A stretch of 64,000 bases of DNA, taken from assembly GCF_053078305.1 (NCBI RefSeq), contig NZ_CP166879.1; one strand, given 5' to 3'. A program made the translations under genes and the position numbers. Below the pieces are notes generated by a model. It was not told the origin of the DNA, did no database searches, and was given only the letters and a program-made list of their open reading frames with translations. Below are positions 28,228 to 44,709 of the stretch, piece after piece (position 1 is the stretch's first letter; every line of letters starts with the position of its first letter).

Positions 28228-28456
28228 GCGACCTTATTATCCATGCGCGGTATTGTCGCCGTATTCCTGCATTAACAGAGACCGCAGCCCGACAGGGAGA
28301 CTCCTCTGCGCGAGTGTGCGGGGATAATCAAAAACGATACACACCGGGGTTTACCGCGTTAACGGAGCGCGGCGTTGTCCCCTCATGGTCGCTGGTCCGG
28401 TGCGATGGTGGAAGAAACTGGATTTTGTTGCAACTGATAATCATTATCATTTTCTC

Positions 28457-28640
28457 GGGTCCTTTCCGGCATATGGACCCGTTACGGGGCGGCGACCTCG
28501 CGGATTTTCACTATTTATGAAAATTTTCCGGGATCCATGTCCGGTTTCTCTGCAAGTTAACCATATGAAAAATATAAAAACATGCTTTCCATGAACCGGA
28601 CATGCGCAAAAAATAGACACTAAAACCGGACATGACCGGT
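28457..28640 (+). promoter_or_regulatory. Helper cos site (cosQ side, cosN, cosB)
   Basis: GGGTCCTTTCCGG...CCGTTACG then GGGCGGCGACCT (28487-28498, the lambda cohesive-end sequence as recalled), then CGCGG..TATTTATGAAAATTTTCCGG. Three AACCGGACATG repeats at 28536-46 (inverted), 28594-604 and 28624-34. Confidence 0.85.
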
Positions 28641-28681
28641 TTTGTTGTGATTGTGAGGTGAGAGTTTTTGCGAGGTGAGGA

Positions 28682-29191
28682 GTGGCTACGCAGACTGAAG
28701 TTGCCAGGCATTTAAGTCTGACCGATCGCCAGCTTCGCAGATTGCAGAAATTGCCGGGTGCCCCGATATCGAATAAGCGAGGGCAACTGGATCTGGATGC
28801 CTGGCGCGATTTTTACATATCGTATCTGAGAAGAAGTAAAAACGATGTGCCTGATGGCGATAGCGAAGACGACTATGAGGAGAAATTGCTTATTGCCAGA
28901 TGGGAACTGACAGCAGAACAGGCTGTTACACAGCAGTTAAAAAATGAGGTGTCAAAAGGAAAACTTATTGACACCGGGTTCTGTATTTTTGCCCTCAGCA
29001 AGCTGGCAATGGCGTTATCCAGTACGCTTGATTCCATCCCTTTATCCATGCAGCGACAGTTTCCTGATTTAACACCGCGCCATCTTGACCATCTGAAAAC
29101 CCTTATTGCGAAGGGGGCAAATCAGTGTGCGCGGGCGGGGGATAAATTACCGGATTTACTCGATGAATATATCAGAGCAACAACTGAATAA
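28682..29191 (+). CDS. nu1: Terminase small subunit (Nu1 family C-terminal part, distinct N-terminal HTH)
   Basis: GTG start. The C-terminal part FCIFALSKLAMALSSTLDSIPLSMQRQFPDL...LLDEYI aligns with recalled lambda Nu1. Confidence 0.8.
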   Translation: MATQTEVARHLSLTDRQLRRLQKLPGAPISNKRGQLDLDAWRDFYISYLRRSKNDVPDGDSEDDYEEKLLIARWELTAEQAVTQQLKNEVSKGKLIDTGFCIFALSKLAMALSSTLDSIPLSMQRQFPDLTPRHLDHLKTLIAKGANQCARAGDKLPDLLDEYIRATTE

Positions 29192-31091
29192 TATGATGAG
29201 CGCTGTCACAACAGCATTACAGCCCCTGATAAGGGCATTGCCGGTGACGCCAGTTGAATGGGCTGATCAAAATTATTATCTGCCTAAAGAATCTTCATAT
29301 GGTGAGGGAGAATGGAAAACGCTGCCGTTCCAGATCGCCATCATGAACAGCATGGGGAATGATCAGATCCGGACTGTTAATCTGATTAAATCTGCCCGTG
29401 TTGGCTATACAAAGATGTTGCTGGGAGTCGCCGGGTATTTTATTGAGCATAAATCCCGAAACAGTCTGCTTTTTCAGCCCACGGATTCTGCCGCTGAAGA
29501 TTTTATGAAGTCTCACGTGGAGGCGACGATTCGCGATGTTCCCTGCCTGAAAAAACTTTCTCCCTGGCTGGGACGTAAACATCGTGATAATACCATCACG
29601 CTGAAACGCTTTTCATCGGGTGTGGGTTTCTGGTGCCTGGGTGGTGCGGCAGCAAAAAACTACCGTGAAAAATCCGTGGATGTGGTCTGCTATGACGAGC
29701 TTTCCTCGTTCGAGCCGGATGTTGAAAAAGAGGGCTCGCCAACCCTGCTGGGGGATAAGCGTATTGAGGGCTCGGTATGGCCAAAATCCATTCGCGGCTC
29801 GACGCCAAAAATAAAAGGTTCCTGCCAGATCGAAAAAGCGGCCAACGAGTCGGCGCATTTTATGCGTTTTTATGTGCCCTGCCCACACTGCGGGGAGGAG
29901 CAGTATCTGAAATTTGGCGATGAGTCCACGCCTTTTGGCCTTAAATGGGAGAAGGACAGCCCCGAAAGCGTTTTCTACCTCTGTGAACATCATGGCTGCG
30001 TGATCCATCAGTCTGAGCTTGACCAGAGCAACGGGCGGTGGATCTGTGAAAACACGGGGATGTGGACCCGTGATGGTCTGACGTTTTTCAGCGCTGCGGG
30101 TAATGAAATTCCACCGCCGCGCTCCATCACGTTCCACATCTGGACGGCGTACAGTCCGTTCACCACCTGGGTACAGATAGTCTATGACTGGCTGGATGCA
30201 CTGAAAGATCCCAACGGCGTGAAAACCTTTGTGAACACCACGCTGGGCGAGACCTGGGAAGAGGCCGTGGGCGAAAAACTCGATCACCAGGTGCTGATGG
30301 ATAAGGTTGTGCGTTACACAGCGGCGGTGCCTGCCCGGGTGGTTTATCTGACGGCGGGTATTGACTCGCAGCGAAACCGTTTTGAGATGTATGTCTGGGG
30401 ATGGGCTCCGGGAGAGGAAGCCTTTCTGGTGGATAAAATCATCATTATGGGGCGTCCCGATGAGGAAGAGACGCTGTTACGTGTGGATGCGGCGATCAAC
30501 AAAAAATACCGCCATGCAGACGGAACCGAAATGACCATTTCCCGTGTCTGCTGGGACACAGGGGGGATCGATGGCGAAATTGTCTATCAGAGGTCAAAAA
30601 AACACGGTGTTTTCCGGGTGCTGCCGGTAAAAGGTGCATCTGTTTATGGCAAGCCGGTGATCACCATGCCAAAAACCCGCAATCAGCGGGGCGTGTATCT
30701 GTGCGAAGTGGGGACGGACACCGCAAAAGAAATTCTCTATGCCCGTATGAAAGCCGATCCCACGCCTGCGGATGAAGCCACGTCGTATGCCATCCGTTTT
30801 CCTGATGATCCGGAGATTTTTTCGCAGACAGAGGCGCAGCAACTGGTGGCGGAAGAGCTTGTGGAGAAGTGGGAAAAAGGAAAGATGCGTCTGCTGTGGG
30901 ATAACAAAAAGCGGCGTAACGAAGCGCTGGACTGCCTGGTGTATGCCTACGCGGCATTACGTGTGTCCGTGCAACGCTGGCAGCTTGATCTGGCTGTACT
31001 GGCAAAATCCCGGGAAGAAGAGACGACCCGGCCAACCCTTAAAGAACTGGCAGCGAAGCTGTCCGGAGGAGTGAATGGTTACAGTCGCTGA
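29163..31091 (+). CDS. A: Terminase large subunit gpA
   Basis: MNISEQQ...VEWADQNYYLPKESSYGEGEWKTLPFQIAIMN...KNYREKSVDV..YDEL is collinear with recalled lambda gpA throughout. Confidence 0.95.
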   Translation: MNISEQQLNNMMSAVTTALQPLIRALPVTPVEWADQNYYLPKESSYGEGEWKTLPFQIAIMNSMGNDQIRTVNLIKSARVGYTKMLLGVAGYFIEHKSRNSLLFQPTDSAAEDFMKSHVEATIRDVPCLKKLSPWLGRKHRDNTITLKRFSSGVGFWCLGGAAAKNYREKSVDVVCYDELSSFEPDVEKEGSPTLLGDKRIEGSVWPKSIRGSTPKIKGSCQIEKAANESAHFMRFYVPCPHCGEEQYLKFGDESTPFGLKWEKDSPESVFYLCEHHGCVIHQSELDQSNGRWICENTGMWTRDGLTFFSAAGNEIPPPRSITFHIWTAYSPFTTWVQIVYDWLDALKDPNGVKTFVNTTLGETWEEAVGEKLDHQVLMDKVVRYTAAVPARVVYLTAGIDSQRNRFEMYVWGWAPGEEAFLVDKIIIMGRPDEEETLLRVDAAINKKYRHADGTEMTISRVCWDTGGIDGEIVYQRSKKHGVFRVLPVKGASVYGKPVITMPKTRNQRGVYLCEVGTDTAKEILYARMKADPTPADEATSYAIRFPDDPEIFSQTEAQQLVAEELVEKWEKGKMRLLWDNKKRRNEALDCLVYAYAALRVSVQRWQLDLAVLAKSREEETTRPTLKELAAKLSGGVNGYSR

Positions 31092-31281
31092 ACTGCAGGC
31101 GCTGCGTCAGGCGCGCCTTGATTTATTAACCGGTAAACGGGTGGTGTCTGTCCAGAAAGATGGTCGCAGAATTGAATATACGGCGGCCTCTCTGGATGAG
31201 CTTAACCGTGCGATCAATGATGCTGAGTTGGTACTGGGGACAACCCGCCGTCGCCGTCGTCCGCTGGGAGTGAGGTTATGA
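31075..31281 (+). CDS. W: Head-tail joining protein gpW
   Basis: 68 aa in the lambda W position, with a basic C-terminus. Confidence 0.8.
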   Translation: MVTVAELQALRQARLDLLTGKRVVSVQKDGRRIEYTAASLDELNRAINDAELVLGTTRRRRRPLGVRL

Positions 31282-32098
31282 AACGAACGCCTGTCCTGAT
31301 TGATGTGAACGGCGTTCCGCTTCGGGAGAGCCTAAGCTACAACGGGGGCGGCGCAGGATTTGGCGGGCAAATGGCAGAGTGGTTGCCACCCTCGCAGAGT
31401 GCCGATGCGGCCCTGCTGCCCGCGTTGCGTCTGGGGAATGCCCGTGCAGATGATCTGGTGCGCAATAACGGAATAGCGGCCAATGCGGTGGCCCTGCATA
31501 AGGATCACATTGTCGGGCATATGTTTCTGATTAGCTACCGTCCGAACTGGCGCTGGCTGGGGATGCGGGAGACCGCGGCAAAAAGTTTTGTCGATGAGGT
31601 GGAGGCGGCCTGGTCAGAATACGCAGAAGGGATGTTTGGTGAGATCGACGTGGAAGGGAAACGCACGTTTACGGAATTTATCCGTGAAGGTGTGGGCGTT
31701 CATGCGTTTAACGGCGAAATCTTTGTGCAGCCGGTCTGGGATACGGAGAGCACGCAACTGTTTCGTACGCGTTTTAAAGCCGTGAGTCCGAAACGGGTGG
31801 ACACGCCAGGACACGGTATGGGGAACCGTTTTCTGCGGGCCGGTGTGGAGGTCGATCGATATGGTCGTGCCGTTGCGTACCATATCTGTGAGGATGATTT
31901 TCCTCACTCCGGGAGTGGACGATGGGAACGGATCCCGCGTGAACTTCTCACCGGGCGTCCGGCCATGCTGCATATTTTCGAGCCGGTGGAGGACGGGCAG
32001 ACCCGTGGGGCCAATCAGTTTTACAGCGTCATGGAACGGCTGAAGATGCTCGATTCCCTGCAGGCAACACAGCTTCAGTCGGCCATTGTTAAAGCCAT
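31278..32098 (+). pseudogene. B: Portal protein gpB, 5' part (about 273 codons), interrupted by island insertion
   Basis: Lambda B-like up to ...TQLQSAIVKA, then 17 unrelated codons and a stop at 32150. Confidence 0.9.
32091..32098. repeat. attL core (AAAGCCAT)
   Basis: Identical octamer at 43930-43937. TATG follows 1 nt downstream at both junctions. Confidence 0.7.
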
Positions 32099-32227
32099 TT
32101 ATGTCTATCATCTCCCCGTAGTTGTCCGCATCGTTCGCCAACTCCACTGAAACCCTTGCTGCGGCTGGAATGTCGTTTTCCATACTTTTGATGACCGTTC
32201 ATCACACTTCCAGGTTTTCGCGGTTTT

Positions 32228-32298: not shown

Positions 32299-33540
32299 AT
32301 GGCTATTGAAAACAAACTCAGTGACAAACTGTTAAAGAGTCTTGTCGGAAAACGGCAGGACAAACAAAAAACAATAGCGGATGGGCGCGGGTTGTCTGTG
32401 CGTGTAAGCATGGTTGGGGGGATCAGCTTTGTTTTTTACTATCGTCTTGGTGGCAGGGAATCCCCTCCGGTATGGCTTACACTTGGGCGCTATCCTGATA
32501 TGTCTCTTGCAACAGCCAGGCGCATGCGTGATCAGTGCCGTGAGTGGCTGGCTGAAAATCTGGACCCCCGCAGGCAAATAAAACTTGCCGCCGAAAAAAC
32601 CATGCAACCAGTGACCGTAAGGGATGCGCTGTTTTACTGGTACGACAATCACGCCACAACAGCCAGAAAAGAGCATGAATATTTAATAAAACGATTTGAA
32701 AAGCATATCTTCCCCTATATCGGTGATATGGCTATAGAACAGTGCAAATTACACACATGGCTTGCCGTCTTTGACAGGATCAAAAAAAATGCGCCTGTTA
32801 TGTCTGGTGCAATTTTTCTTGATATCAAACAGGCGTTGCGTTTTTGTCGCGTCAGGCAATACATCGCGTGCGATCCCTTTGGCGATATTAACGTAAGTTA
32901 TGTCGGGCGCTCATCCGGTATAAGGGATCGCGTTCTTAATATCAATGAAACAGCGGATGTATGGTCTTATGCTTACGGTAATAATTTGCTGACACTGTCA
33001 TCAATACATAACAGAAGAATAATGGTTATCTGCCTGGTGTTTGGTTGCCGTCAGCAGGAGGCGAGGTTATCCACATGGGACGAATGGGATTTAAAAAACT
33101 GGGTATGGACAGTCCCAAAAGAGCACAGCAAAAACAAGGAGGCCATAGTAAGGCCTGTTCCTGACGGCATAAAACAATGGCTCGTTAATCTTTACGCAGA
33201 AACAAAAAATCGCGGTTATGTTGTCGGTTGTGCTTTGCAAAGGGCGACAATAACAGGGGCTGCAAACAGAATATGCAGGCGTCTTGGTCATGATATTAAT
33301 GGCTTGTGGTGCATACATGATTTCAGGCGCACATTTTCCACTGCGCTTAATGATATGGGGGCGGATCCTTATATTGTCGAACTTCTTTTAGGTCATAAAG
33401 TGAAAGGGGTTGCCGGTGTTTACAATAAAAGCAGGCATATAAAGAAAAAACTTGAGGTGCTTAATATGTGGGTTAATTACCTTAATACGATAGCAGGATT
33501 TAACAACAACGTTATCGAGCTTAATAAAGAGGTGGTGTGA
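32299..33540 (+). CDS. int: P4-type tyrosine integrase
   Basis: 413 aa. N-terminal KLSDKLLKSL...DGRGLSVRV...FVFYYRLGG (DUF4102-like arm-binding domain). C-terminal HDFRRTFST...LLGHKV..VAGVYN. Confidence 0.9.
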   Translation: MAIENKLSDKLLKSLVGKRQDKQKTIADGRGLSVRVSMVGGISFVFYYRLGGRESPPVWLTLGRYPDMSLATARRMRDQCREWLAENLDPRRQIKLAAEKTMQPVTVRDALFYWYDNHATTARKEHEYLIKRFEKHIFPYIGDMAIEQCKLHTWLAVFDRIKKNAPVMSGAIFLDIKQALRFCRVRQYIACDPFGDINVSYVGRSSGIRDRVLNINETADVWSYAYGNNLLTLSSIHNRRIMVICLVFGCRQQEARLSTWDEWDLKNWVWTVPKEHSKNKEAIVRPVPDGIKQWLVNLYAETKNRGYVVGCALQRATITGAANRICRRLGHDINGLWCIHDFRRTFSTALNDMGADPYIVELLLGHKVKGVAGVYNKSRHIKKKLEVLNMWVNYLNTIAGFNNNVIELNKEVV

Positions 33541-33541
33541 T

Positions 33542-35883: not shown

Positions 35884-36045
35884 GTGCCGCATAGTCACAC
35901 CTTATCAATGGTGGGCTGTACGGGGGCGGAGCAATCCGCGCCGGTTTCTTCAGTGTCCGGTTACGCCAACCCTGTACAGTCCGCCACCAGCGAAATTGGC
36001 GTTTCCGGTGGCGGTTATCTTAACCACACTGAGGAGGCTGCCAAC

Positions 36046-36237
36046 ATGGCTACTATCCCTACCCTTGTACATTCTCAAACCGCCTTTCTCTGGCGCTTTA
36101 TCATCTTTGGCGCGTCAGACCATCAAATCATCCACGTCACCGCCTGGACGGAACGCGAAGCGCGTAGCCGTTGCCCGTCCGGTTGTGTTGCTGTATTCGC
36201 CGCCCGTATTCGTCAGGAGGTGTGCCATGTGCAATAA
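36046..36237 (+). CDS. Icd-like small protein (host cell-division inhibitor family of P1/P4-type elements)
   Basis: RBS GAGGAGG. MATIPTLVHSQTAFLWRF...VTAWTEREARSRCPSG... Has the same first 7 codons as the helper rha gene. Confidence 0.5.
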   Translation: MATIPTLVHSQTAFLWRFIIFGASDHQIIHVTAWTEREARSRCPSGCVAVFAARIRQEVCHVQ

Positions 36238-36484
36238 AACCACACCGGACGCAGCCGCCGCGCTCACTACACTGATGCACGCGCTGATTGATATTTCTGT
36301 TATTGCTGACAGGGCGCATAAGCACGCCACCAGTGAAACAGAATATGCCGGGGCTTTCGTTCCTCATTCGCTGGCGGTTATGCAACTTAGTGCTGATATG
36401 GCGCTGAATGAGGCCAAAGCTATCCTGATTTCTGATTGTGAAAATGGGGGGGGGTTATGCGTGATGATCGTTTTAATGCCCTGA
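36227..36484 (+). CDS. Hypothetical protein
   Basis: 85 aa, RBS AGGAGG. Overlaps the icd-like stop. Confidence 0.4.
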   Translation: MCNKTTPDAAAALTTLMHALIDISVIADRAHKHATSETEYAGAFVPHSLAVMQLSADMALNEAKAILISDCENGGGLCVMIVLMP

Positions 36485-36678
36485 AACAGGAGTTTGATGG
36501 TGCGCCTGATGATGCAGGTGATGCGCTTTCGTCAATATCCGAACTGATAAGAGTGGCCTTTTTCTTACTTGGCACGAAAGAATATAAATCAACTGGAATA
36601 GACGTACTGAATATTACTGCTGATTATGCGGAATATATGGCAGAAGTGGATTTAAGAAAGATAACGGACAGGGGGTAA
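36457..36678 (+). CDS. Hypothetical protein
   Basis: 73-aa coupled ORF. Confidence 0.4.
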   Translation: MRDDRFNALKQEFDGAPDDAGDALSSISELIRVAFFLLGTKEYKSTGIDVLNITADYAEYMAEVDLRKITDRG

Positions 36679-36679
36679 T

Positions 36680-36913
36680 ATGCGTGATATTTACCACGAA
36701 ACAATAGACCGCGCATTTAGTGCCCTTGCTTACGCTGAAGGTATGTACGAAATATTGCAAATGTGTCTGGAAACATTTGGCGATAATGAGCGTGATGTAA
36801 AGAAGGCGCGGATTATTAAATCACTGATAACTCTCCTTGAACCTGTAATAACAGAGTTGCAGGAAATAGACTTATTGCACGACAGATATAACGAACAGCA
36901 CACCGGAGAATAA
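36680..36913 (+). CDS. Hypothetical protein
   Basis: 77-aa coupled ORF. Confidence 0.4.
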   Translation: MRDIYHETIDRAFSALAYAEGMYEILQMCLETFGDNERDVKKARIIKSLITLLEPVITELQEIDLLHDRYNEQHTGE

Positions 36914-36918
36914 AAATA

Positions 36919-37218
36919 ATGAAACTTAAATATCCTGGCTTAACTGCCAGTGGCAACACTCACCCTAAATTTACGCGCGGTGATATTTACCGCGACCAGT
37001 ACGGCGGCACGGTAATGATTAAGGGCGTGGCGGGACGGTGCGTAACTTACCGCCGTGAAGGCTACGAATATGATTGCGTGATGCCTGTTTATCAGTTCCG
37101 GCGTGATTTTTCTCTGGTACAGACCGCGCCGCATAACGTGCCCACCAGCAACGCCAGGGCACGGGCAAACATCCAGAAGCTGAAAACCATGATTAACGGA
37201 TTCAGGGGTAAAAAATGA
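36919..37218 (+). CDS. Hypothetical protein
   Basis: 99-aa coupled ORF. Confidence 0.4.
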   Translation: MKLKYPGLTASGNTHPKFTRGDIYRDQYGGTVMIKGVAGRCVTYRREGYEYDCVMPVYQFRRDFSLVQTAPHNVPTSNARARANIQKLKTMINGFRGKK

Positions 37219-38624
37219 AACTGGCACCGAACGTAAAACGATTACCGAAAGATAAATACACCGAAGCGGTTATTTTTGCGGGTATTGATGCTCACTCATT
37301 CGCAGAGCATTACATCATTGCACAGGCCAAAAAAGCAGGCGATCCAGTCCCTCCCGTTTATCTGGGGCGTTATCAGTTAAGCGAACTGGATAACCTCCAG
37401 ATTGTTGATGATGGGCGATACAGGGCGACGGTGATACGCGCCGGAAATATTGAAGAGCCGCAGCTGTTAACCATCGCCACGAAACTGGCGAGCGCCGGAG
37501 TCCAGGAGGCGCGGCTACTTTCTGAAAATTTCGAATTGCTGGAGGAATGGAGCGACCAGCTTCCACGGCTTAGGGAGGCATGGGAACGCGGGGAAAGCCT
37601 GGTCATGAAAAAAATTCCCCAGCGAAAAACCACGCTACCGATGAGCGTTGGATCTACCGGATACGACACACAGCTTGATTACGTGGTAAAGGGGATTATT
37701 CCGGCATCGTCGCTTTGCAGCATATACGGGGCGAGCGGTTCCTATAAATCATTCCTTGCCGGATCGTGGGCGTGTCACGTTTCCACGGGCCGCCAGTGGG
37801 GAGGCCGCAGGGTGGCGCATGGCGCTGTTCTCTATGTGGTTGGTGAAGGCGGTATCGGCGTTCCGCGTCGTGTAAAAGCCTGGGAGGTTGTGCACGGTGA
37901 GCAGGTGAAAAATCTGTATCTGGTAAACCGTCCCATCTTTCCGGCTGTCCCGCTTGATGTTGATGAACTGGTTATTGCTGCCAGTCAGGTGGAGAGGGAA
38001 ACGGGTAAACCTGTTCGCATGATTATTCTGGACACGCTGGCGCGTTGCTTTGGCGGCAATGATGAAAATGACTCCCGCGACATGGGGGCATTTATCCGTG
38101 GTTGTGACGAGCTTAAACGGCGCACAGGGGCTACGGTGCTGGTGGTTCACCATTCCGGCAAGGATGAAACAAAGGGGGCGCGTGGTTCCAGTGCATTTCG
38201 TGCATCACTGGACGCTGAATACCGGATACGCAGGGAGGACGCAGGAAGCGAAGCGCTGGTTATCTCATGCACCAAAATGAAGGACGCGGAGGAACTCAAA
38301 GAGGCTGCCTATGATTTGCGGGTGGTGGAGCTTTTTACCGACGCTGACGGGGAGTTAATTACGTCGCTGGTGGTGGTGGATAAGCCGCGCCCTCCCGTTG
38401 AACTGGAGCGCATCGAGGAGGCAGGCAACAAGACGGAAAACCATACCGCGCTATGGGGGTGCATCCGTTCACGCACACAGAACGGCGACAAGTGCACGAT
38501 CCCGCTGTTACGTGACGATATGAAAAAGCTGGGGTATGACACAAAACACCTTAAACGATGGTTAGCCAAACTGGAAAAAGACGACGTGATCTACATTGAC
38601 GGTGATGATGTAGGACCACTGTAA
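37215..38624 (+). CDS. Replication protein with RepA/AAA_25-type RecA-fold ATPase domain
   Basis: Walker A-like YGASGSYKSF, MIILDTLARCFGG..ENDSRDM and LVVHHSGKDETKGARGSSA motifs typical of RepA-like helicases. Iterons follow. Confidence 0.65.
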   Translation: MKLAPNVKRLPKDKYTEAVIFAGIDAHSFAEHYIIAQAKKAGDPVPPVYLGRYQLSELDNLQIVDDGRYRATVIRAGNIEEPQLLTIATKLASAGVQEARLLSENFELLEEWSDQLPRLREAWERGESLVMKKIPQRKTTLPMSVGSTGYDTQLDYVVKGIIPASSLCSIYGASGSYKSFLAGSWACHVSTGRQWGGRRVAHGAVLYVVGEGGIGVPRRVKAWEVVHGEQVKNLYLVNRPIFPAVPLDVDELVIAASQVERETGKPVRMIILDTLARCFGGNDENDSRDMGAFIRGCDELKRRTGATVLVVHHSGKDETKGARGSSAFRASLDAEYRIRREDAGSEALVISCTKMKDAEELKEAAYDLRVVELFTDADGELITSLVVVDKPRPPVELERIEEAGNKTENHTALWGCIRSRTQNGDKCTIPLLRDDMKKLGYDTKHLKRWLAKLEKDDVIYIDGDDVGPL

Positions 38625-38825
38625 AAAGTGGGCATTAAAAGTGGGAAAGGTGGGCGATTTAACGTAATTTTAACAAAATCACCCACTTTCCCACGTGTAT
38701 ATATCCCAAAAAGTGGGCACTAAAAAAATACCTATGAAACAAGATGATATAAATCCCAAACTTCCCACGTTGGACGAAGTGGGAAAACGTAAAAAGTGGG
38801 CGAAAAAAGTGGGTAGAGGTGGGCG
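38620..38825. repeat. Island ori candidate: AAAGTGGG iterons
   Basis: At least 8 direct (A/G)GTGGG copies (38627, 38640, 38649, 38712, 38778, 38795, 38808, 38818). Inverted copies at 38682-94 and 38764. Located directly 3' of rep. Confidence 0.6.
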
Positions 38826-38826
38826 A

Positions 38827-39078
38827 ATGACTCAAAAACACAGAGACAGAACAGAGCCAAAATATAAAGCGTTAGACATGACAGAGCACGCTTTAAAGGT
38901 GGCAATCAGGGTAATAGACCGCCACACGCGGGAAGGATACGCGAAGGAACATCCCGACCTGATAAGCGCATTCATGACCACAGCGGCGGCAAACTTTGCC
39001 ACGCTGACAGAACGGGAGATAGCCGAAGCGGAACAGGTAACAACCATCAACGTTAAAACCGGAGAGGTGGAATCATGA
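38827..39078 (+). CDS. Hypothetical protein
   Basis: 83 aa from the ATG at 38827. Longer starts (38695 GTG) would read through the iterons. Confidence 0.35.
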   Translation: MTQKHRDRTEPKYKALDMTEHALKVAIRVIDRHTREGYAKEHPDLISAFMTTAAANFATLTEREIAEAEQVTTINVKTGEVES

Positions 39079-39485
39079 CAGCACAGATAGCCGCTTACGG
39101 GCGGCTGGTGGACGACCCGCAGGTAAAACAAACCAGCAAGGGCACACCGATGACGCTGGCGCGTATGGCGGTATCTCTGCCATGCAGCCAGGCACAGGAC
39201 GGGCAGGCTACGTTATGGCTATCAGTGATGGCATTTGGTAAGCAGGCCGACTTCCTGGCTAAACATCAAAAAGGCGATGTTGCCAGCGTATCCGGCACGA
39301 TGCAGGTAAGCCAGTGGACCAGACAGAACGGGGAAACGCGGCAGGGTTATCAGGTTATTGCAGACAGTGTAATCAGTGCCCGTGCTGCCCGTCCTGGCGG
39401 GAGCAGACGTACAACCACAGGCACACAGGGTAATCAGCCACCAGCGGGAGGCGATGACCCTTACGGTGACGGTATTCCGTTCTGA
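39075..39485 (+). CDS. ssb: Single-stranded DNA-binding protein
   Basis: OB-fold N-terminus, Gly/Pro-rich linker and an acidic tail DDPYGDGIPF. Confidence 0.8.
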   Translation: MTAQIAAYGRLVDDPQVKQTSKGTPMTLARMAVSLPCSQAQDGQATLWLSVMAFGKQADFLAKHQKGDVASVSGTMQVSQWTRQNGETRQGYQVIADSVISARAARPGGSRRTTTGTQGNQPPAGGDDPYGDGIPF

Positions 39486-39495
39486 GGGGGTGACG

Positions 39496-39768
39496 ATGGT
39501 ACATGACCGCATAGCGGAGGAACTCGAGGCAAAAGGCTTTTACCGGAGGGCGGCGGCGCGATGGGGTGAAGTTATGCAGCTGGTGGAGACAGACAAGGAA
39601 CGGCATCAGGTTACGATGCGACGGCTGGAATGTTCCAGGAAGGCACAGAGGCCACCGGAGCCGCCGGATAACTTCGGAGACCTGAAAAAAGCAGTAGATC
39701 GCACTTATGCCGAAATGGGTATGGATGGTGTAAGCGATGAAATATGGCGTAATTACCCAGACAGCTAA
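39496..39768 (+). CDS. PerC-like transcriptional activator
   Basis: MVHDRIAEELEAKGFYRRAAARWGEVM.. resembles the recalled PerC-family N-terminus. Confidence 0.45.
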   Translation: MVHDRIAEELEAKGFYRRAAARWGEVMQLVETDKERHQVTMRRLECSRKAQRPPEPPDNFGDLKKAVDRTYAEMGMDGVSDEIWRNYPDS

Positions 39769-39774
39769 TCAACA

Positions 39775-39796
39775 GCCGGAGAAATCCGGCTTTTTT
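39775..39796 (+). terminator. Intrinsic terminator
   Basis: GCCGGAGAAATCCGGC plus T6, identical to the hairpin at 42049-42071. A second hairpin lies at 39810-39845. Confidence 0.65.
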
Positions 39797-40007
39797 GTAC
39801 CCAAAAAAAGCCCGATAAGTACAGGAGGCATCTTATCGGGCTTTTGCATATGAGGTTTTTTTGGTGCACTGACACACATGATCGGGGTAATCATTTCATA
39901 ATTTGCAACACAACTCAACATCATTGCACAAAATGCAATCCTGATTATAATCAGAGCTGGATGAACATCCAGTTCTGATTTTTTAAGTCAAAGAGGAATT
40001 TCTTACT

Positions 40008-40214
40008 ATGGCTGAAGAGAAAAAAGGCGGTGTTTCGGTGTACATAAGCCCCGAAATCGTGGAGGTGCTCAAGCAGCGCCACAAAAAAAACTATGAGGCT
40101 GGCGTAGCGGCTGGACTGGATCCGCTGATGACGCCGGAGCCGTCGATAGGTTCACTTGTGCGCTCTTATTTACTTGCGGCGCTTGGGATGCATAAAAATT
40201 ATGGTGGTGAATAA
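40008..40214 (+). CDS. Hypothetical small protein, first gene of the island head operon
   Basis: 68 aa, RBS AAGAGGA. Stop overlaps the capsid-gene start. Confidence 0.4.
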   Translation: MAEEKKGGVSVYISPEIVEVLKQRHKKNYEAGVAAGLDPLMTPEPSIGSLVRSYLLAALGMHKNYGGE

Positions 40215-41269
40215 TGACAGTAAAAGCAATGGCACTTACAACTAACCAGCTTTTCGCGTACCTGAATCGCGGGGATATTGCAGAATTTAAATTCAGTCCG
40301 CTGTTTACCACGCTGTTTTTCCCGAACGTGGCGACCTTCAACACCCAGAACATCATGCTGGACACCCTGGACATTGAAGAGGTTACGATGTCAGCGTTCT
40401 GTTCGCCTATGGTGGGTAGTCAGGTCCAGCGCGATAAAGGGTACGAAACCAGCACGATTAAACCAGGCTACATGAAACCCAAACACGAAATCGATCCAAC
40501 AAAAACCATCATGCGCATGGCTGGAGAAGATCCGGCACAGCTTAACGACCCTACCTACCGCCGTATGCGCCTGATTACTGGCAACATGCGCCGCCAGATA
40601 AACGCCATTAAAGCGCGCGTGGAATGGCTGGCGGTGAATGCGATAACGACCGGAAAAAACATCATTGAGGGCGAAGGCATAGAACGCTATGAAATCGACT
40701 GGAAAATACCGGAAAACTGCATCATAGAGCAGGCCAAGGGTAAAAAATGGTCCGAGCATGATAAAGATATTTACGATCCAATCTATGACATCGAACTATA
40801 CGCAGATCAGGCAGGTTGCCCCGCCAACGTCATGATTATGGGCGCTGAGGTATGGCGCACGTTACGCAGCTTTAAAAAATTCCGCGAACTGTACGATCTT
40901 TCCCGTGGTTCAGAATCCGCCGCAGAACTGGCCTGTAAAAACCTGGGTGAAGTAGTGAGCTTTAAAGGCTATCTGGGCGATATTGCCCTTATCGTCTATT
41001 CCGGCAAATACACTGACAGCGACGGTACCGAAAAATATTTCCTTGAGCCTGATTTGCTGGTCCTGGGTAACACCAACAATAAAGGGCTGGTGGCCTATGG
41101 TGCGATTATGGATCAGGAAGCGGTAAGAACGGGCGCAACGCAAAACATGTTCTACCCGAAAAACTGGATTGAAGACGGCGATCCGGCGATTGAGTACGTT
41201 CAGACGCACAGCGCACCGCAGCCGGTACCGGCAGATATTCGCAAATTTGTTACCGTCAAAATTGCTTAA
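40214..41269 (+). CDS. Lambda gpE-family major capsid protein paralogue (E')
   Basis: 351 aa. Shares PGY.KPKHE, GEDPAQLNDP.YRR, VVSFKGY.GD, DGTEK, YPK.W and GDPA.E blocks with helper E (46646-47674). Confidence 0.85.
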   Translation: MTVKAMALTTNQLFAYLNRGDIAEFKFSPLFTTLFFPNVATFNTQNIMLDTLDIEEVTMSAFCSPMVGSQVQRDKGYETSTIKPGYMKPKHEIDPTKTIMRMAGEDPAQLNDPTYRRMRLITGNMRRQINAIKARVEWLAVNAITTGKNIIEGEGIERYEIDWKIPENCIIEQAKGKKWSEHDKDIYDPIYDIELYADQAGCPANVMIMGAEVWRTLRSFKKFRELYDLSRGSESAAELACKNLGEVVSFKGYLGDIALIVYSGKYTDSDGTEKYFLEPDLLVLGNTNNKGLVAYGAIMDQEAVRTGATQNMFYPKNWIEDGDPAIEYVQTHSAPQPVPADIRKFVTVKIA

Positions 41270-41280
41270 CGGGGGATTCT

Positions 41281-41616
41281 ATGGACACTCCATACATTGA
41301 GTTATTTGCAGGCAGTCAGCAGGTATCCACGACGCTGGTACATTTTGCCGCTGATGCTGGCGTTATTCAGGAATTTACCCCGCTGATGCTGGCGGACAAT
41401 GGCGAGTTTAAGCCGTGGGATGGTCAGGAATCTGGCAAGGCTGTTTATCTGACCTCGTACCCCGTGGACACGTCAAAGCAGAAATCAGCACAGTGTTACA
41501 AGACGGGGATATTTAATATCGCCGCCGTAAACTGGCCTGAGAGCGCCGACACTGACGCGAAAAAATGCGCCGCCTTTGCGGGTTCTGGCGTATCCGTTCA
41601 GCCGCTGGCGCGATAA
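41281..41616 (+). CDS. Lambda gpD-family head decoration protein paralogue (D')
   Basis: 111 aa. Shares TPLML, WDGQ, YK.G.F, WPES and AF.G blocks with helper D. Confidence 0.75.
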   Translation: MDTPYIELFAGSQQVSTTLVHFAADAGVIQEFTPLMLADNGEFKPWDGQESGKAVYLTSYPVDTSKQKSAQCYKTGIFNIAAVNWPESADTDAKKCAAFAGSGVSVQPLAR

Positions 41617-41628
41617 GCAGGGGAAACG

Positions 41629-42042
41629 ATGGCAACGAATGAAAGCATCATGGCGCTACCGCTGGCGAGTAAATTTAAAGCAGAAGCGCGGGCAATGGCT
41701 GACAGAGGTTTATCAACCTACGAGGCCGTATATCAACTCAACAAACTGGAAGAGCAGGACAAGCCGCGCGCTGATGCGATTATGGCGCTTCATGAACATA
41801 ACGACTATCAGCCGCTGTTACGTGCAATGGCAAACGTGCCATGTATTAGCGTCGATAATGCTCGTGAAATCCTGAACATGACCATAGAGCAGGAGCGCCC
41901 AAAGGTTGCGCCGGAGCTTACCGCAGCCTTTGAAAACTTTATGGACATGCACAGCCCGAAAGCCGTATCACCCGGCATGGCATACGACGGCAGAAACCAG
42001 GGCGATGAAGGCGACGTCGATCGCATACTGAAAACCATCTGA
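41629..42042 (+). CDS. Nu3-like scaffolding protein (Nu3')
   Basis: The tail LTAAFENFMDMHSPKAVSPG...GDEGDVDRIL parallels the helper gpC tail TTALFEHFMANHSPAAVQGG...GDADVKML. Also IMALHE...ISVDNAREIL versus IMALDE...MTVESARAVL. Confidence 0.65.
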   Translation: MATNESIMALPLASKFKAEARAMADRGLSTYEAVYQLNKLEEQDKPRADAIMALHEHNDYQPLLRAMANVPCISVDNAREILNMTIEQERPKVAPELTAAFENFMDMHSPKAVSPGMAYDGRNQGDEGDVDRILKTI

Positions 42043-42048
42043 CATAAG

Positions 42049-42071
42049 GCCGGAGAAATCCGGCTTTTTTT
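42049..42071 (+). terminator. Intrinsic terminator abutting the island cos
   Basis: GCCGGAGAAATCCGGC plus T7. Confidence 0.65.
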
Positions 42072-42073
42072 AC

Positions 42074-42140
42074 GGGTCCTTTCCGGCATATGGACCCGTT
42101 ACGGGGCGGCGACCTCGCGGTTTTTCGCTATTTATGAGCT
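42074..42140 (+). promoter_or_regulatory. Island cos site 2 (same orientation as helper cos)
   Basis: 42074-42120 is identical to helper 28457-28503, including GGGCGGCGACCT (42104-42115). The downstream cosB-equivalent is different. Confidence 0.85.
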
Positions 42141-42248
42141 TTTTTCGGGTGCTGGTGGTGGTTTTGTTGTTCGCTCTATCTCTATGAATAAAAAGGGAAA
42201 GATAAAACCAATACACCAACCTGAAACATTACTTAAGTGGGGATATTG

Positions 42249-42791
42249 ATGAAATCGCACCTGATGAACAAAAAAAACATGGCGCAAAGCTGCCGTGTAA
42301 GTGCGACAGCGTTCGACAAGTGGGGAGTGACTCCCGTTGAACGTAAAGGACGCGAGGCTTTTTACGATGTTGCCAGCGTGATAGACAATCGGGTAAGCAA
42401 TGCAATTAACCAGGTTACAAACGACAAAGGCGAGATTGATGATGATGAACTCTTACGAGTCAGGATCAGATTACTGACCGCCCAGGCTGAGGCGCAGGAA
42501 CTTAAAAACGAGCGCGATCGCGGTGACGTAATTGATACTGAGTTTTGCCTGTACGCGCTTTCAAAGCTGGCGAGTCAGATTTCTTCAATCATGGACAGTT
42601 TGCCGCTTACCATGCAAAGGCGCTTCCCGCAGATTACTCCCGCTATGCTGGATGGGCTTAAAAGGGAAGTGGTTAAAGCCTGTAATGCCAGTGCCACAGT
42701 TGCCGACAACCTCCCGAAGATACTGGCTGATTACCTGATGGAAACTACCGGAGACGTACCGGAGAAGTTGCTACAGAAGAAAGGCGAGTAA
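42249..42791 (+). CDS. Nu1-family terminase small subunit paralogue (TerS')
   Basis: N-terminal MNKKNMAQSCRVSATAFDKWGV resembles lambda Nu1 (VNKKQLADIFGASIRTIQNW). The C-terminal FCLYALSKLASQISSIMDSLPLTMQRRFPQI..ILADYL parallels the helper TerS. Start 42237, 42249 or 42264. Confidence 0.8.
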   Translation: MKSHLMNKKNMAQSCRVSATAFDKWGVTPVERKGREAFYDVASVIDNRVSNAINQVTNDKGEIDDDELLRVRIRLLTAQAEAQELKNERDRGDVIDTEFCLYALSKLASQISSIMDSLPLTMQRRFPQITPAMLDGLKREVVKACNASATVADNLPKILADYLMETTGDVPEKLLQKKGE

Positions 42792-42940
42792 CAGACGCGC
42801 AATTATTGAACAAAAGTAAGGCCCGACATGAAATCACCCAAAAATGCCTTTTTCATGCGTTTGTATGTCTGACCTTTTACGGTTTCGATATTATAAAAAA
42901 CAAATAGTTACGCTCGAGAGGTACCGACACGCATTTTTCA

Positions 42941-43014
42941 GGAAAATTTTCATAAACAGATAAAAACCGCGAGGTCGCCGCCCCGTAACGGGCCATAATT
43001 CCAGGAAGGACCCG
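42941..43014 (-). promoter_or_regulatory. Island cos site 3 (inverted, diverged flanks)
   Basis: Reverse complement reads GGGTCCTTCCTGGAATTATGGCCCGTTACG-GGGCGGCGACCT-CGCGGTTTTTATCTGTTTATGAAAATTTTCC. The core lies at 42972-42983. Confidence 0.8.
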
Positions 43015-43047
43015 ACGACACCAGGCTATCAGAACGATGAGGGCACA

Positions 43048-43329
43048 ATGACAGAAGCCGAACTACTGGGATTAATCCGCTACGTTACCGGAATCAGCCA
43101 GCAGCATGACGAACAGGCCACGCAGCCGGACAGCGTGACCGCTGAAAATTATGCGCGTGTTGTTGCTGAGGTGATGCGCCGTGATGGTATCCAGCTTAAT
43201 GATGCAGATATGCGCGACATACGGATCCGCGTTCTTGAAATGCTGGCCTACCGTCGCCGCGTGCAGACGTACAGGGAAAAAGCAAAAATAACGTACCAGT
43301 GGAAGAAGCCGGAGCGATTACGGCGGTAA
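43048..43329 (+). CDS. Hypothetical protein
   Basis: 93-aa ORF, last gene before the right arm. Confidence 0.4.
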   Translation: MTEAELLGLIRYVTGISQQHDEQATQPDSVTAENYARVVAEVMRRDGIQLNDADMRDIRIRVLEMLAYRRRVQTYREKAKITYQWKKPERLRR

Positions 43330-43441
43330 CTTGCTGATATTCCCGATAACGCAAAATTGCGCTCTGTCCTAACCCGTTGATATTTTCGGGAACAGCCAAC
43401 GGCTGAGGCCGGAACAACGATTATCTTTCAGATAGTCAGAG

Positions 43442-43458
43442 CTACGAAATTTTCGTAG
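43442..43458. repeat. Palindrome CTACGAAA-T-TTTCGTAG
   Basis: Perfect 8+1+8 inverted repeat of the half site that is repeated at 34771-34800. Confidence 0.6.
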
Positions 43459-43724
43459 TTTAATTACTCGCCAGTTTATCGTTAACTCGTTGATATTTTC
43501 GGTAACCTCAATTTGAGGAGATCGGAAACATAACCCTTCACATTCTGAATGGTTATAATGACCACTCAGACCATCAAGGCAACCATAACGAACATCGTTA
43601 CGGTTGGAGCTTTTACCCCACTGGGGGGAAGGTGCACATCTGGATCATCATTACCGTGATCAAGGGTATGTAAAACCCACCAGCCTGATTAACTGTTAAC
43701 CGGAAAAAAGCCAGGTAGCCAATC

Positions 43725-43748
43725 TCGATATGGGGATCCCCATATCGA
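43725..43748. repeat. 24-bp perfect palindrome TCGATATGGGGATCCCCATATCGA
   Basis: Read directly from the sequence, in the ORF-free right arm. Confidence 0.6.
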
Positions 43749-43834
43749 CATTAACGCCCCCTAGAACTGCGCATATCTGCATATAAAAACATCCACCAGC
43801 TTTATGACGGATGCCGCTCATCTGATAAATAATC

Positions 43835-43857
43835 GTGTATTGCAATGTGTATTGCGA
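43835..43857. repeat. GTGTATTGCAA repeats (right arm)
   Basis: GTGTATTGCAA at 43835-45 and GTGTATTGCGA at 43847-57. Confidence 0.5.
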
Positions 43858-43929
43858 CTCCTTTAAACGATAGGTTTGAGCATTCGTAATGTACTGTTTT
43901 TAAATTTTATTTTTTCCTGTCTTTTCATA

Positions 43930-44709
43930 AAAGCCATGTATGCAGCGACGATTGAAAGTGAACTTGATACCGAAAAGGCCTTTGAATATATCGCCGGTGC
44001 GCCGCAGGGGCAGAAGGATAATCCGCTTATTAATATTCTGGATAAGTTCTCCACCTGGTATGACACGAATATCGTGACGCTGGGCGGTGTCAAAATTCCG
44101 CACCTTTTCCCCGGTGATGATCTGAAACTTCAGACCGCGCAGGATTCAGACAATGGATTTTCGGCGCTTGAACAGGCGCTGCTGCGGTATATCGCCGCCG
44201 GTCTTGGCGTTTCCTACGAACAGTTGTCCCGTGATTACTCGAAGGTCAGTTATTCAAGTGCCCGCGCCTCCGCCAATGAGTCGTGGCGCTATTTTATGGG
44301 ACGACGAAAATTTATTGCAGCCCGGCTGGCCACGCAGATGTTTTCCTGCTGGCTGGAAGAGGCACTTCTTCGGGGGATTATCCGTCCGCCACGGGCACGT
44401 TTTGATTTTTATCAGGCGCGTTCAGCCTGGTCGCGGGCAGAGTGGATTGGCGCAGGAAGAATGGCCATTGACGGGCTCAAGGAGGTCCAGGAATCAGTGA
44501 TGCGCATTGAGGCCGGACTGAGCACGTATGAGAAAGAGCTGGCGCTGATGGGTGAGGATTATCAGGACATTTTCCGCCAGCAGGTCAGGGAATCCGCAGA
44601 GCGGGAAAAAGCCGGACTCTCACGTCCGGTGTGGATAGCGCAGGCGTATCAGCAGCAGATAGCAGAGAGCCGCAGGCCGGAAGAGGAGACAACACCACGT
44701 GAGACGTAA
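43930..44709 (+). pseudogene. B: Portal protein gpB, 3' part
   Basis: KAMYAATIESELD...LLRYIAAGLGVSYEQLSR...ARASANESWRYFMGRRKF...GAGRMAIDGLKEVQE is collinear with the recalled lambda B C-terminal half. Codons upstream of 43930 are island DNA. Confidence 0.9.

What the first reader, a model, noticed from the sequence alone, without database searches (positions are those of the whole stretch)
42941..43014. A third, inverted cos site faces the island cos across the terS' gene
Seen: the reverse complement of 42941-43014 is GGGTCCTTCCTGGAATTATGGCCCGTTACG GGGCGGCGACCT CGCGGTTTTTATCTGTTTATGAAAATTTTCC. This is a full cos-like site with the same 12-nt core (42972-42983) but diverged flanks. It is oriented towards cos2, 0.87 kb away, so the two convergent sites bracket only terS'. 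No terS follows it in its own orientation. Its cosB-side flank contains ATGCGT/ACGCAT repeats and one CCCGACATG, one mismatch from the helper R-like motif. Inference, with alternatives: (a) a relic of recombination with another cos element; (b) a decoy that titrates or misdirects helper terminase; (c) a second initiation site allowing packaging in the opposite direction.
Basis: partly seen in the sequence, partly recalled or inferred. Interest (0 to 1): 0.7.

Follow-up and report, generated by a model that had tools for sequence, protein, structure and literature searches.

The report
Inverted second cos site of a PICI
The inverted cos site is real, but it is the already published "cos2" of the EcCICFT073 family of E. 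coli phage satellites; here it carries a complete phage-21-type terminase-binding region, which suggests a second packaging entry point for a different class of helper phage.

Summary
The window holds three exact GGGCGGCGACCT cores (28487+, 42104+, 42972-). A 72-nt, 82% inverted repeat links the two island sites across the terS-like gene. The feature is larger than reported. It is a discrete ~250-bp insertion (42795-43045) between the terS' stop and the next gene, and it holds a whole lambdoid cos in reverse orientation: cosQ, cosN, I2, then R3, I1, R2 and R1. These align at canonical spacing with the annotated cosB of phage 21 (~80% identity).

It is not new. The published deletion primers for "cos.2" of the satellite EcCICFT073 flank exactly this core in this orientation. 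Published experiments show cos2 is a working cos site, is not essential, and slightly lowers transfer by lambda. The junction is present in 579 of 5,426 complete E. coli genomes.

The added finding is that the cosB part of this slot is a swappable cassette. I found at least five types, all with the same R3/R2/R1 geometry. Several match real phages, which the published papers did not recognise.

Best reading: a second packaging initiation site that does not need TerS'/Rpp, is specific for another helper class, and is inverted so that paired cos sites do not delete the gene between them.

The parts
28456..28660 (+). cos of the resident helper prophage. cosQ/cosN core at 28487-28498. cosB of the 'CATGTCCGG' (PhiR12) type.
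   Evidence: The cassette is 99% identical to the stretch directly upstream of Nu1 in phage PhiR12_1.
28682..29191 (+). Helper small terminase (Nu1 family), 100% identical to PhiR12_1 Nu1.
29106..31091 (+). Helper large terminase gpA (ATPase and nuclease domains).
31278..32150 (+). 5' part of the helper portal gene (Pfam Phage_portal_2 positions 2-241), interrupted by the island at about 32100.
32299..33540 (+). Island integrase, marking the left end of the ~11.8-kb satellite (about 32100-43935).
42073..42236 (+). Island primary cos, the orthologue of EcCICFT073 cos1. cosQ, cosN core at 42104-42115, and an island-specific cosB (GGTGGTGG / CAATACACCAACC).
42249..42791 (+). terS': a full-length Nu1-family small terminase (180 aa) in the slot where EcCICFT073 has rppA.
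   Evidence: No hit to solved structures, which should include RppC.
42795..43045 (-). The whole inverted cos module ('cos3', orthologue of EcCICFT073 cos2). It is a discrete insertion relative to single-cos relatives, in which terS' and the next gene are 12 nt apart.
42984..43020 (-). cosQ-side flank of the inverted cos. It has 0 mismatches to the 30-nt 3' arm of published primer CFT073-delta-cosN-12c.
42972..42983 (-). cosN 12-nt core of the inverted cos.
42919..42934 (-). R3 of the phage-21-type cosB (13 of 16 identical to phage 21 R3).
42898..42910 (-). I1, the IHF site of cosB (12 of 13 identical to phage 21 I1).
42861..42876 (-). R2, in the opposite orientation to R3 and R1 (13 of 16 identical).
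42817..42833 (-). R1 (16 of 17 identical).
43048..43329 (+). 93-aa gene of unknown function (phrog_1561). It is the last gene of this island and is shared with capsid-forming PICIs and helper-embedded PICIs that lack the inverted cos.
43876..44709 (+). 3' part of the helper portal gene (Phage_portal_2 positions 235-354), resuming at about 43930.

Best explanation
The feature is the positional orthologue of cos2 of EcCICFT073-family phage-inducible chromosomal islands. It is a complete lambdoid cos site (cosQ-cosN-I2-R3-I1-R2-R1), inserted in reverse orientation between the island's packaging-specificity gene (here a full Nu1-type terS'; rppA in EcCICFT073) and the last island gene.

Proposed mechanism, with shown and inferred steps marked:
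1. After induction the island excises and replicates as concatemers (established for the family).
2. The forward cos at 42104 has an island-specific cosB. It is presumably served by TerS' together with the helper large terminase (inferred by analogy with Rpp and cos1).
3. The inverted cos carries a genuine phage cosB, here of phage-21 specificity. Unmodified terminase of a phage-21-like helper could therefore bind it, nick at 42972-42983 and package leftwards (inferred here; the CFT073 orthologue is a working cos site by plasmid transfer and deletion tests).
4. The cosB of this slot is exchangeable. Otherwise near-identical islands carry at least five cassettes with the same R3(+)/R2(-)/R1 geometry, so the slot would set which additional helper class can package the island without the island's own protein (inferred).
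5. Termination at cos is orientation-dependent in lambda (established knowledge, from memory). An inverted pair would therefore still give unit-length genomes from either site, whereas a direct pair would delete or duplicate terS' (inferred).
6. The cost is occasional double cutting. This fits the published rise in transfer when cos2 is deleted.
For: Identity with cos2:
- The published delta-cos.2 primers flank the inverted core exactly in CFT073 (L007 12030-12041) and in the window (42972-42983), in the same orientation.
- The gene order is the same: capsid E, decoration D, 137-aa gene, cos, rpp or terS', inverted cos, 93-aa gene.

Published function (PMC6092414; PMC6739421):
- Cloned cos2 permits plasmid transfer by lambda and phi80.
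- Deleting cos1 lowers transfer and deleting cos2 raises it. The double deletion abolishes transfer.
- RppA stimulates cos1 but not cos2. cosB swaps place the Rpp target in cos1.

Complete phage cos:
- About 80% identity over 172 nt to the phage 21 left end.
- All annotated subsites are at the same spacing.

Discrete insertion:
- Single-cos relatives L067 and L068 have terS' and the 93-aa gene 12 nt apart.

Cassettes:
- Types A-E have R motifs at about +50(+), +110(-) and +153(+) (B: +140(-); E: +187(+)). Phage 21 has the same geometry.
- Type B is 99% identical to the cosB directly upstream of Nu1 in phage PhiR12_1, and matches the window's own helper.

Conservation:
- The junction is in 579 of 5,426 complete E. 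coli genomes.
- In a sample anchored on the 93-aa gene, the inverted core was perfect in 31 of 40 loci and had one mismatch in 4. The forward core was perfect in 36 of 40.

Potential helpers:
- Phage-21-like cosB is common: 1,146 of 5,426 genomes.
Against: - No cleavage or transfer data exist for this island or for a phage-21-type cassette.
- The experiments on the orthologue used lambda and phi80, whose cosB does not match cos2, so helper-matched use has never been shown.
- In both cases where the helper is known, the cassette does not match it. The window has a PhiR12-type helper and a 21-type cassette. CFT073 has a 21-type helper (phi4) and a PhiR12-type cassette. With five types this is expected by chance, but it gives no positive support.
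- Close relatives do without the site (L067-L069).
- Five of 40 sampled loci carry one truncated form lacking cosB and 4 nt of the core.
- Deleting cos2 improved transfer in the laboratory.
- The surveyed loci are not phylogenetically independent.
Confidence: 0.6

Rival explanations
1. Non-functional relic. A phage cos region was captured once by recombination with a lambdoid helper. It persists, and is shuffled between islands, only because it is short and nearly neutral.
For: - It is absent from close single-cos relatives.
- A truncated variant is present in 5 of 40 loci.
- Deleting the orthologue does not harm transfer and in fact raises it (PMC6092414).
- Core point variants occur in 4 of 40 loci.
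Against: - The boundaries are exact, from cosQ to R1, with no other phage DNA.
- At least five different cassettes occupy the same slot, and each keeps the three-R geometry.
- The core is conserved about as well as that of the essential forward cos.
- The orthologue is a working cos and carries the residual transfer of a delta-cos1 island.
Confidence: 0.2
2. Decoy or interference element. The phage-type cosB binds native helper terminase and provokes unproductive binding or cutting, which lowers helper yield.
For: - It carries a genuine phage cosB rather than the island-type one.
- It sits on a high-copy replicating satellite (inference).
Against: - In EcCICFT073 the screen for an inhibitor of lambda identified RppA, not a DNA site (PMC6739421).
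- In the two known pairs the cassette does not match the resident helper.
- A cos cut on the island's own concatemer would damage the island as well. This is consistent with delta-cos2 raising island transfer, so it is a cost rather than a benefit.
Confidence: 0.08
3. Recombination substrate. The ~72-nt inverted repeat exists to let the segment between the two cosN cores invert or be exchanged, reshuffling packaging specificity or switching terS'/rpp orientation.
For: - Some loci have only 512 nt and no gene between the convergent sites. In these the PhiR12-type cassette and an rpp 3' remnant lie in the opposite orientation to CFT073.
- One locus (L092) has the same core variant GGGCGTCGACCT in both sites, which suggests gene conversion.
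Against: - The arrangement is stable in most loci: spacing classes are 855, 727 or 747 nt, and the gene is in the same orientation.
- Inversion is an expected by-product of any inverted repeat and needs no selected function.
- No recombinase-specific sites were seen.
Confidence: 0.07

Closest known systems
cos2 of the E. coli satellite EcCICFT073 (Fillol-Salom et al. 2018, PMC6092414; 2019, PMC6739421)
   Same: - Same position, between the packaging-specificity gene and the 93-aa last gene.
- Same inverted orientation relative to cos1.
- Identical cosQ-cosN flank: the published deletion primer arm matches with 0 mismatches.
- Same island backbone.
   Different: - The cosB cassette is phage-21 type here and PhiR12 type in CFT073.
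- The gene between the two sites is a full-length Nu1-type TerS (180 aa) here and RppA (144 aa) there.
- This island sits inside its helper's portal gene rather than at a chromosomal site.
cos of phage 21 (cosN, R3, I1, R2, R1 as annotated in OL657228)
   Same: Identical 12-nt cosN. R3, I1, R2 and R1 are at the same spacing and orientation, with 13/16, 12/13, 13/16 and 16/17 identities. Overall about 80% identity over 172 nt.
   Different: - No terS follows. The homology stops before the terS start.
- The site points into the 3' end of a convergent gene.
- The cosQ-side flank is the island variant (GGAATTATGGCCC) rather than the phage one.
Phage lambda cos and double-cos constructs
   Same: Same cosQ/cosN/I2 layout and three-R cosB geometry.
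   Different: - The R sequences differ from lambda's CGTTTCC type.
- Two natural sites in inverted orientation on one replicon are not a feature of lambda.
- The consequences for termination are inferred from lambda knowledge and were not tested here.
Rpp-dependent cos1 of Gram-negative PICIs (Murialdo and Feiss 2022, PMC9026076)
   Same: It belongs to the same packaging module and shares cosQ and cosN.
   Different: cos1 has an island-specific cosB with no phage-type R repeats and depends on Rpp-TerS. The inverted site has a phage-type cosB and was not stimulated by RppA.

Membership tests
Lambdoid cos site (cosQ-cosN-cosB) | 12-nt cohesive-end core GGGCGGCGACCT | tested here: met
   Exact match at 42972-42983 on the minus strand.
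Lambdoid cos site (cosQ-cosN-cosB) | cosQ-type flank upstream of cosN | tested here: met
   GGGTCCTTCC...CCCGTTACG aligns with the cosQ side of the helper, the island forward cos and phage IdasGreatGrand. It resembles the cosQ given in PMC6092414 Fig. S5.
Lambdoid cos site (cosQ-cosN-cosB) | cosB with R3, an IHF site, then R2 (inverted) and R1 at canonical spacing | tested here: met
   Mapped onto the annotated phage 21 subsites with one 1-nt indel. Motifs are at +55(+), +113(-) and +156(+), against 55, 112 and 155 in phage 21.
Lambdoid cos site (cosQ-cosN-cosB) | Small terminase gene immediately downstream of cosB | tested here: not met
   Homology ends before the terS ATG. The stop codon of the convergent terS' follows.
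Lambdoid cos site (cosQ-cosN-cosB) | Nicking by terminase to give 12-nt cohesive ends | not testable with these tools
   Shown only indirectly for the CFT073 orthologue, by plasmid transfer and deletion phenotypes (PMC6092414).
EcCICFT073-family PICI cos2 | Lies between rpp/terS' and the 93-aa gene, inverted relative to cos1 | tested here: met
   Window 42104(+) and 42972(-). The same convergent pair is in CFT073 (L007), L001, L002, L008 and most IMG/VR loci.
EcCICFT073-family PICI cos2 | Sequence identity with the experimentally deleted site | tested here: met
   The delta-cos.2 primer arms flank the core exactly. The cosQ-side arm matches 30 of 30 in the window and the I2-side arm 24 of 30.
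EcCICFT073-family PICI cos2 | Same cosB as the tested cos2 | tested here: not met
   The window cassette is phage-21 type and the CFT073 cassette is PhiR12 type.
Rpp proteins (for the gene between the two sites) | 139-154 aa, winged-helix N-terminus, lacking the C-terminal TerL-binding part of TerS | tested here: not met
   The window protein is 180 aa and aligns over its full length with Nu1-type TerS: Pfam Nu1 35-163 of 164, and phrog_57 8-192 of 199. It is 14% identical to RppA and has no hit among solved structures.
Helper-embedded PICI (Tommasini et al. 2023, PMC10111431) | [quoted passage not shown] | tested here: met
   The portal gene is split into Pfam positions 2-241 (31278-32150) and 235-354 (43876-44709), with the island in between on the same strand. 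The same portal::int junction is in 63 complete genomes.

The most novel reading that the evidence does not exclude
The inverted cos slot of EcCICFT073-family satellites is a modular helper-range determinant. It holds an exchangeable, genuine phage cosB cassette. At least five specificities were seen, including the phage 21 and PhiR12 types. Each would let the native terminase of one lambdoid helper class package the island without Rpp or TerS'. The forward cos with its hijacker protein would serve other helpers.

[quoted passage not shown] It would also correct the published statement that no phage cosB is recognisable in these sites.
Probability: 0.4. Interest if true: 0.6.

Novelty: new member of a known kind. 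Interest (0 to 1): 0.35.

Why it matters
The presence of a second, inverted cos is not news. It was found, cloned and deleted in EcCICFT073 in 2018.

What may matter is why it is there. The comparison shows that the terminase-binding part of this site is real phage cosB. It comes in several interchangeable specificities on near-identical satellites. That turns an unexplained duplicate into a testable idea: satellites keep one proprietary packaging signal and one plain phage signal, and swap the latter to follow the available helpers.

If correct, cassette type would predict which prophages can mobilise a given island and the virulence or fitness genes it carries. It would also be a simple handle for engineering PICI-based delivery particles with chosen helper specificity.

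Tried and rejected
1. Is terS' an Rpp? Rejected. It has no hit among solved structures, it aligns over its full length with Nu1, and it is 14% identical to RppA.

2. Does cassette type co-occur with a matching prophage in the same genome? I attempted inclusion-exclusion with three megablast searches for the PhiR12-type cassette. This failed. The phage R2-R1-terS junction (1,144 genomes) is far more widespread than the full cassette (225 genomes), because phage cosB regions are themselves mosaic. No conclusion was drawn.

3. Does the inverted cos serve helpers whose large terminase cannot be recruited by TerS' (lambda-like versus 21-like C-terminus)? Not supported. A single-cos TerS' island (L067) sits inside a helper with the phage-21 cos and a small terminase (gp1) identical to phage 21's, and TerS DNA-binding and C-terminal domains are mosaic among phages.

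4. A scan of genome contigs with the 93-aa protein returned only one locus (Shigella, no cos) and was uninformative.

5. A promoter and terminator scan of 41900-43500 found nothing beyond the cosN palindromes.

6. Literature after 2019 (Murialdo and Feiss 2022, the PICI engineering and diagnostic papers, and the helper-embedded PICI paper) contains no analysis of cos2.

Full report
**1. Observation**

- The 12-nt core GGGCGGCGACCT occurs exactly three times in the window: 28487 (+), 42104 (+) and 42972 (-). Shuffles give 0.32 matches even when one mismatch is allowed.
- A repeat search finds inverted arms 42073-42144 and 42943-43014. They are 72 nt long, 82% complementary and 798 nt apart.
- The convergent arrangement around the terS-like gene (42237/42249-42791) is therefore real and not due to chance.

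**2. Context**

The first cos belongs to a lambdoid prophage.
- Its small terminase (28682-29191) is 100% identical to Nu1 of phage PhiR12_1.
- It is followed by gpA, and then by a portal gene split into Pfam positions 2-241 (31278-32150) and 235-354 (43876-44709).

Between the two portal halves lies an ~11.8-kb satellite on the same strand. Its genes are:
- an integrase, a Bro-N protein, an Ash-family protein, a DUF4222 protein, a RepA-like helicase and an SSB;
- a lambda E-type capsid protein, a D-type decoration protein and a 137-aa protein resembling the C-terminal part of head maturation protease;
- then cos, terS', the inverted cos and a 93-aa gene.

This is the helper-embedded PICI configuration described by Tommasini et al. 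(PMC10111431). The same portal::integrase junction is in 63 complete E. coli genomes.

**3. The feature is the published cos2 of EcCICFT073**

The late half of the island has the same gene order as EcCICFT073 in strain CFT073 (locus L007). There, a 144-aa gene, rppA, occupies the terS' slot.

[quoted passage not shown] Their supplementary primer table gives the recombineering arms for delta-cos.1 and delta-cos.2.
- The delta-cos.2 arms flank exactly the inverted core of CFT073 (L007 12030-12041), with the forward primer on the island's plus strand.
- In the window the same arms flank 42972-42983. The cosQ-side arm matches 30 of 30 and the I2-side arm 24 of 30.
- The delta-cos.1 arms flank 42104-42115.

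**4. What is already known experimentally**

From PMC6092414 and PMC6739421:
- Each cloned site allows lambda and phi80 to transfer a plasmid, less well than the cognate phage cos.
- Deleting cos1 strongly reduces island transfer.
- Deleting cos2 raises transfer: significantly with lambda, and described in the text as slight with phi80.
- The double deletion abolishes transfer.
- RppA stimulates transfer of cos1 plasmids but not cos2 plasmids, and cosB swaps place the RppA target in cos1.
- The authors state that they could not identify a phage cosB in either site. [quoted passage not shown]

Later papers that I could search do not treat cos2.

**5. Anatomy: a complete phage-21-type cos inserted as a unit**

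- The 226 nt from 43020 down to 42795 match lambdoid phages. The best matches are phage 21 and its relatives, at about 80% identity over 172 nt.
- Aligned to the annotated phage 21 genome, every subsite is present at the same spacing, with a single 1-nt indel:

| Subsite | Window coordinates | Identity to phage 21 |
|---|---|---|
| cosN | 42972-42983 | 12/12 |
| R3 | 42919-42934 | 13/16 |
| I1 (IHF site) | 42898-42910 | 12/13 |
| R2 (opposite orientation) | 42861-42876 | 13/16 |
| R1 | 42817-42833 | 16/17 |

- Homology ends just before the point where the phage terS would start. The stop codon of the convergent terS' follows.
- Two portal-embedded relatives (L067 from strain EC28 and L068 from SCEC020022) have the same terS' and the same forward cos. 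In them, terS' and the 93-aa gene are only 12 nt apart and there is no inverted cos. A third relative (L069) also lacks the inverted cos.
- The alignment shows that the window has a clean ~250-bp insertion, 42795-43045, which is exactly the cos unit.

**6. The cosB of this slot is a cassette**

In CFT073, L001, L002, L008 and the window, the cosQ-cosN-I2 side and the outer flank are nearly identical. The stretch between them differs completely.

An IMG/VR scan with the cosQ-cosN sequence returned 57 loci. Typing them gave five cassettes at the 93-aa-gene side:

| Type | R motif | Note |
|---|---|---|
| A | TCAGATCC | weak match to phage SerU-LTIIb |
| B | CATGTCCGG | PhiR12 type |
| C | phage 21 type | window and two other loci |
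| D | CATGTCGTTTCT | weak match to PhiR5_1 |
| E | GGTTGTTGT | resembles the island's own forward cosB; no phage match found |

- Each type has its motif near +50 (+), near +110 (-) and near +153 (+). Type B has its third copy at +140 (-) and type E at +187 (+). Phage 21 shows the same geometry.
- Type B is 99% identical to the stretch directly upstream of Nu1 in the phage PhiR12_1. It is also the cosB of the window's own helper.
- So the EcCICFT073 cos2 does contain a recognisable phage cosB. It is simply not that of lambda, phi80 or phi4.
- The pairings seen (forward type + inverted type, with locus counts) were: F (TerS' type) with D (12), A (11) and C (3); G (RppA type) with B (10) and E (8). 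There is also a gene-less 512-nt form pairing B with E.

**7. Frequency and conservation**

- The inverted-cos/93-aa-gene junction is present, with at least 80% query coverage, in 579 of 5,426 complete E. coli genomes.
- I ran an IMG/VR sample anchored on the 93-aa gene alone, so that it was blind to cos. Of 123 evaluable loci, 43 have the inverted cos. The other 80 are capsid-forming PICIs, helper-embedded PICIs and other types.
- Among the 40 loci with enough upstream sequence, the inverted core is perfect in 31 and has one mismatch in 4. In 5 it is truncated by one and the same deletion, which removes cosB and 4 nt of the core.
- In the same 40 loci the forward core is perfect in 36 and has one mismatch in 4.
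- The site is therefore accessory. Where present, it is kept about as intact as the essential cos.
- These loci are not phylogenetically independent.

**8. Mechanism**

Best reading (confidence 0.6): the site is a second packaging initiation site that uses the native terminase of a helper matching its cosB, here phage-21-like. It works independently of TerS' or Rpp and packages in the opposite direction.

Steps that are shown:
- It is a full cos.
- The orthologue works as a cos and carries the residual transfer of a delta-cos1 island.
- The cosB cassettes are of phage origin and are exchangeable.
- Phage-21-like cosB is common in E. coli: 1,146 of 5,426 genomes in distant mode.

Steps that are inferred:
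- That a 21-type terminase actually uses this copy.
- That the cassette sets helper range.
- That inversion is favoured because cos termination in lambda is orientation-dependent. Either site alone would then yield unit-length genomes, whereas two direct sites would delete or duplicate terS'. This last point rests on my knowledge of lambda packaging and was not tested here.

The published rise in transfer after cos2 deletion fits a cost from occasional cutting at both sites.

**9. Rival explanations and negative results**

Rivals:
- A neutral relic (0.2). It is favoured by absence in relatives, the truncated variants and the deletion phenotype. The exact boundaries, the cassette diversity with kept geometry and the working orthologue count against it.
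- A decoy for helper terminase (0.08). It has no support: the published screen identified RppA as the inhibitor.
- A recombination substrate (0.07). Inverted-repeat recombination clearly does happen, as shown by the 512-nt form with an rpp remnant in flipped orientation and by the same core variant in both sites of L092. It looks like a by-product.

Negative results:
- In the two cases where the helper is known, the cassette does not match it. The window has a PhiR12-type helper and a 21-type cassette. CFT073 has a 21-type helper (phi4) and a PhiR12-type cassette. With five types this has no statistical weight.
- My attempt to measure co-occurrence genome-wide failed, because phage cosB regions are mosaic.
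- A hypothesis based on TerS C-terminal classes was contradicted by L067.

**10. Verdict**

It is a new member of a known, experimentally characterised kind (EcCICFT073 cos2). It differs in carrying a phage-21-type cosB and in being paired with a full-length TerS rather than an Rpp.

The modest new insight is that this slot holds interchangeable genuine phage cosB cassettes. That offers a testable answer to why these satellites keep two cos sites.

Noticed in passing
window 31278-32150 and 43876-44709; island about 32100-43935: The satellite is integrated inside the portal gene of the lambdoid prophage and co-oriented with it (a helper-embedded PICI). The 21-nt repeat GTGTATTGCAATGTGTATTGC occurs near both ends (32228 and 43835) and may be an integrase arm-type site. 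The same portal::int junction is in 63 complete E. coli genomes.
   Followed up: partly
window 42249-42791 versus L007 11392-11826: The slot between the two cos sites holds either RppA (144 aa, CFT073) or a full-length Nu1-type small terminase (180 aa; window, O157:H7, O145 islands). The TerS' has a lambda-like C-terminus, so it may recruit the helper large terminase directly instead of through a heterodimer. As far as I could find, this TerS' variant of the family has not been studied.
   Followed up: partly
L007 (CFT073) 11830-12030; window 28499-28650; L066 (PhiR12_1): The cosB of the published EcCICFT073 cos2 is 99% identical to the cosB directly upstream of Nu1 in phage PhiR12_1 and to that of the window's helper. 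The 2018 and 2019 papers state that no phage cosB could be identified in the island's cos sites.
   Followed up: yes
window 28456-28503 and 42073-42120: The helper cos and the island forward cos are identical over 48 nt (cosQ side, cosN and the first 5 nt beyond it). The inverted cos has a different cosQ-side variant (GGAATTATGGCCC).
   Followed up: no
L023 9514-10049 (also L010, L014, L020, L024, L037, L064): In some islands the two convergent cos sites are only 512 nt apart with no gene between them. The PhiR12-type cassette and a remnant of the rpp 3' end lie in the opposite orientation to CFT073. This suggests inversion of the inter-cos segment followed by deletion.
   Followed up: partly
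L085, L103, L117, L145, L150: A truncated form of the inverted cos. The terS' stop codon is fused to CCGCCGCCC, so cosB and 4 nt of the core are deleted while cosQ remains. All five loci have the same junction, so this was probably a single event.
   Followed up: partly
L092: Both cos cores of one island carry the same variant, GGGCGTCGACCT. This suggests gene conversion between the inverted repeats, or adaptation to a helper with a variant cosN.
   Followed up: no
window 40214-42042: The island encodes a lambda E-type major capsid protein, a D-type decoration protein and a 137-aa protein matching the C-terminal part of head maturation protease (phrog_53 positions 494-567), possibly a Nu3-like scaffold. 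The 2018 paper states that EcCICFT073 lacks capsid morphogenesis genes and is packaged in full-sized capsids.
   Followed up: no
window 43327-43500: There are three direct copies of TAACnCGTTGATATTTTC (43327, 43370, 43483) downstream of the 93-aa gene, near the right end of the island. Their function is unknown; they may be recombination-directionality or integrase arm sites.
   Followed up: no
window 43048-43329; L003 8015-8296; L067 23949-24230: The 93-aa gene (phrog_1561, no Pfam family) is the last gene of at least three satellite architectures: the EcCICFT073 type, capsid-forming PICIs (where it follows the large terminase) and portal-embedded PICIs. Its function is unknown.
   Followed up: partly
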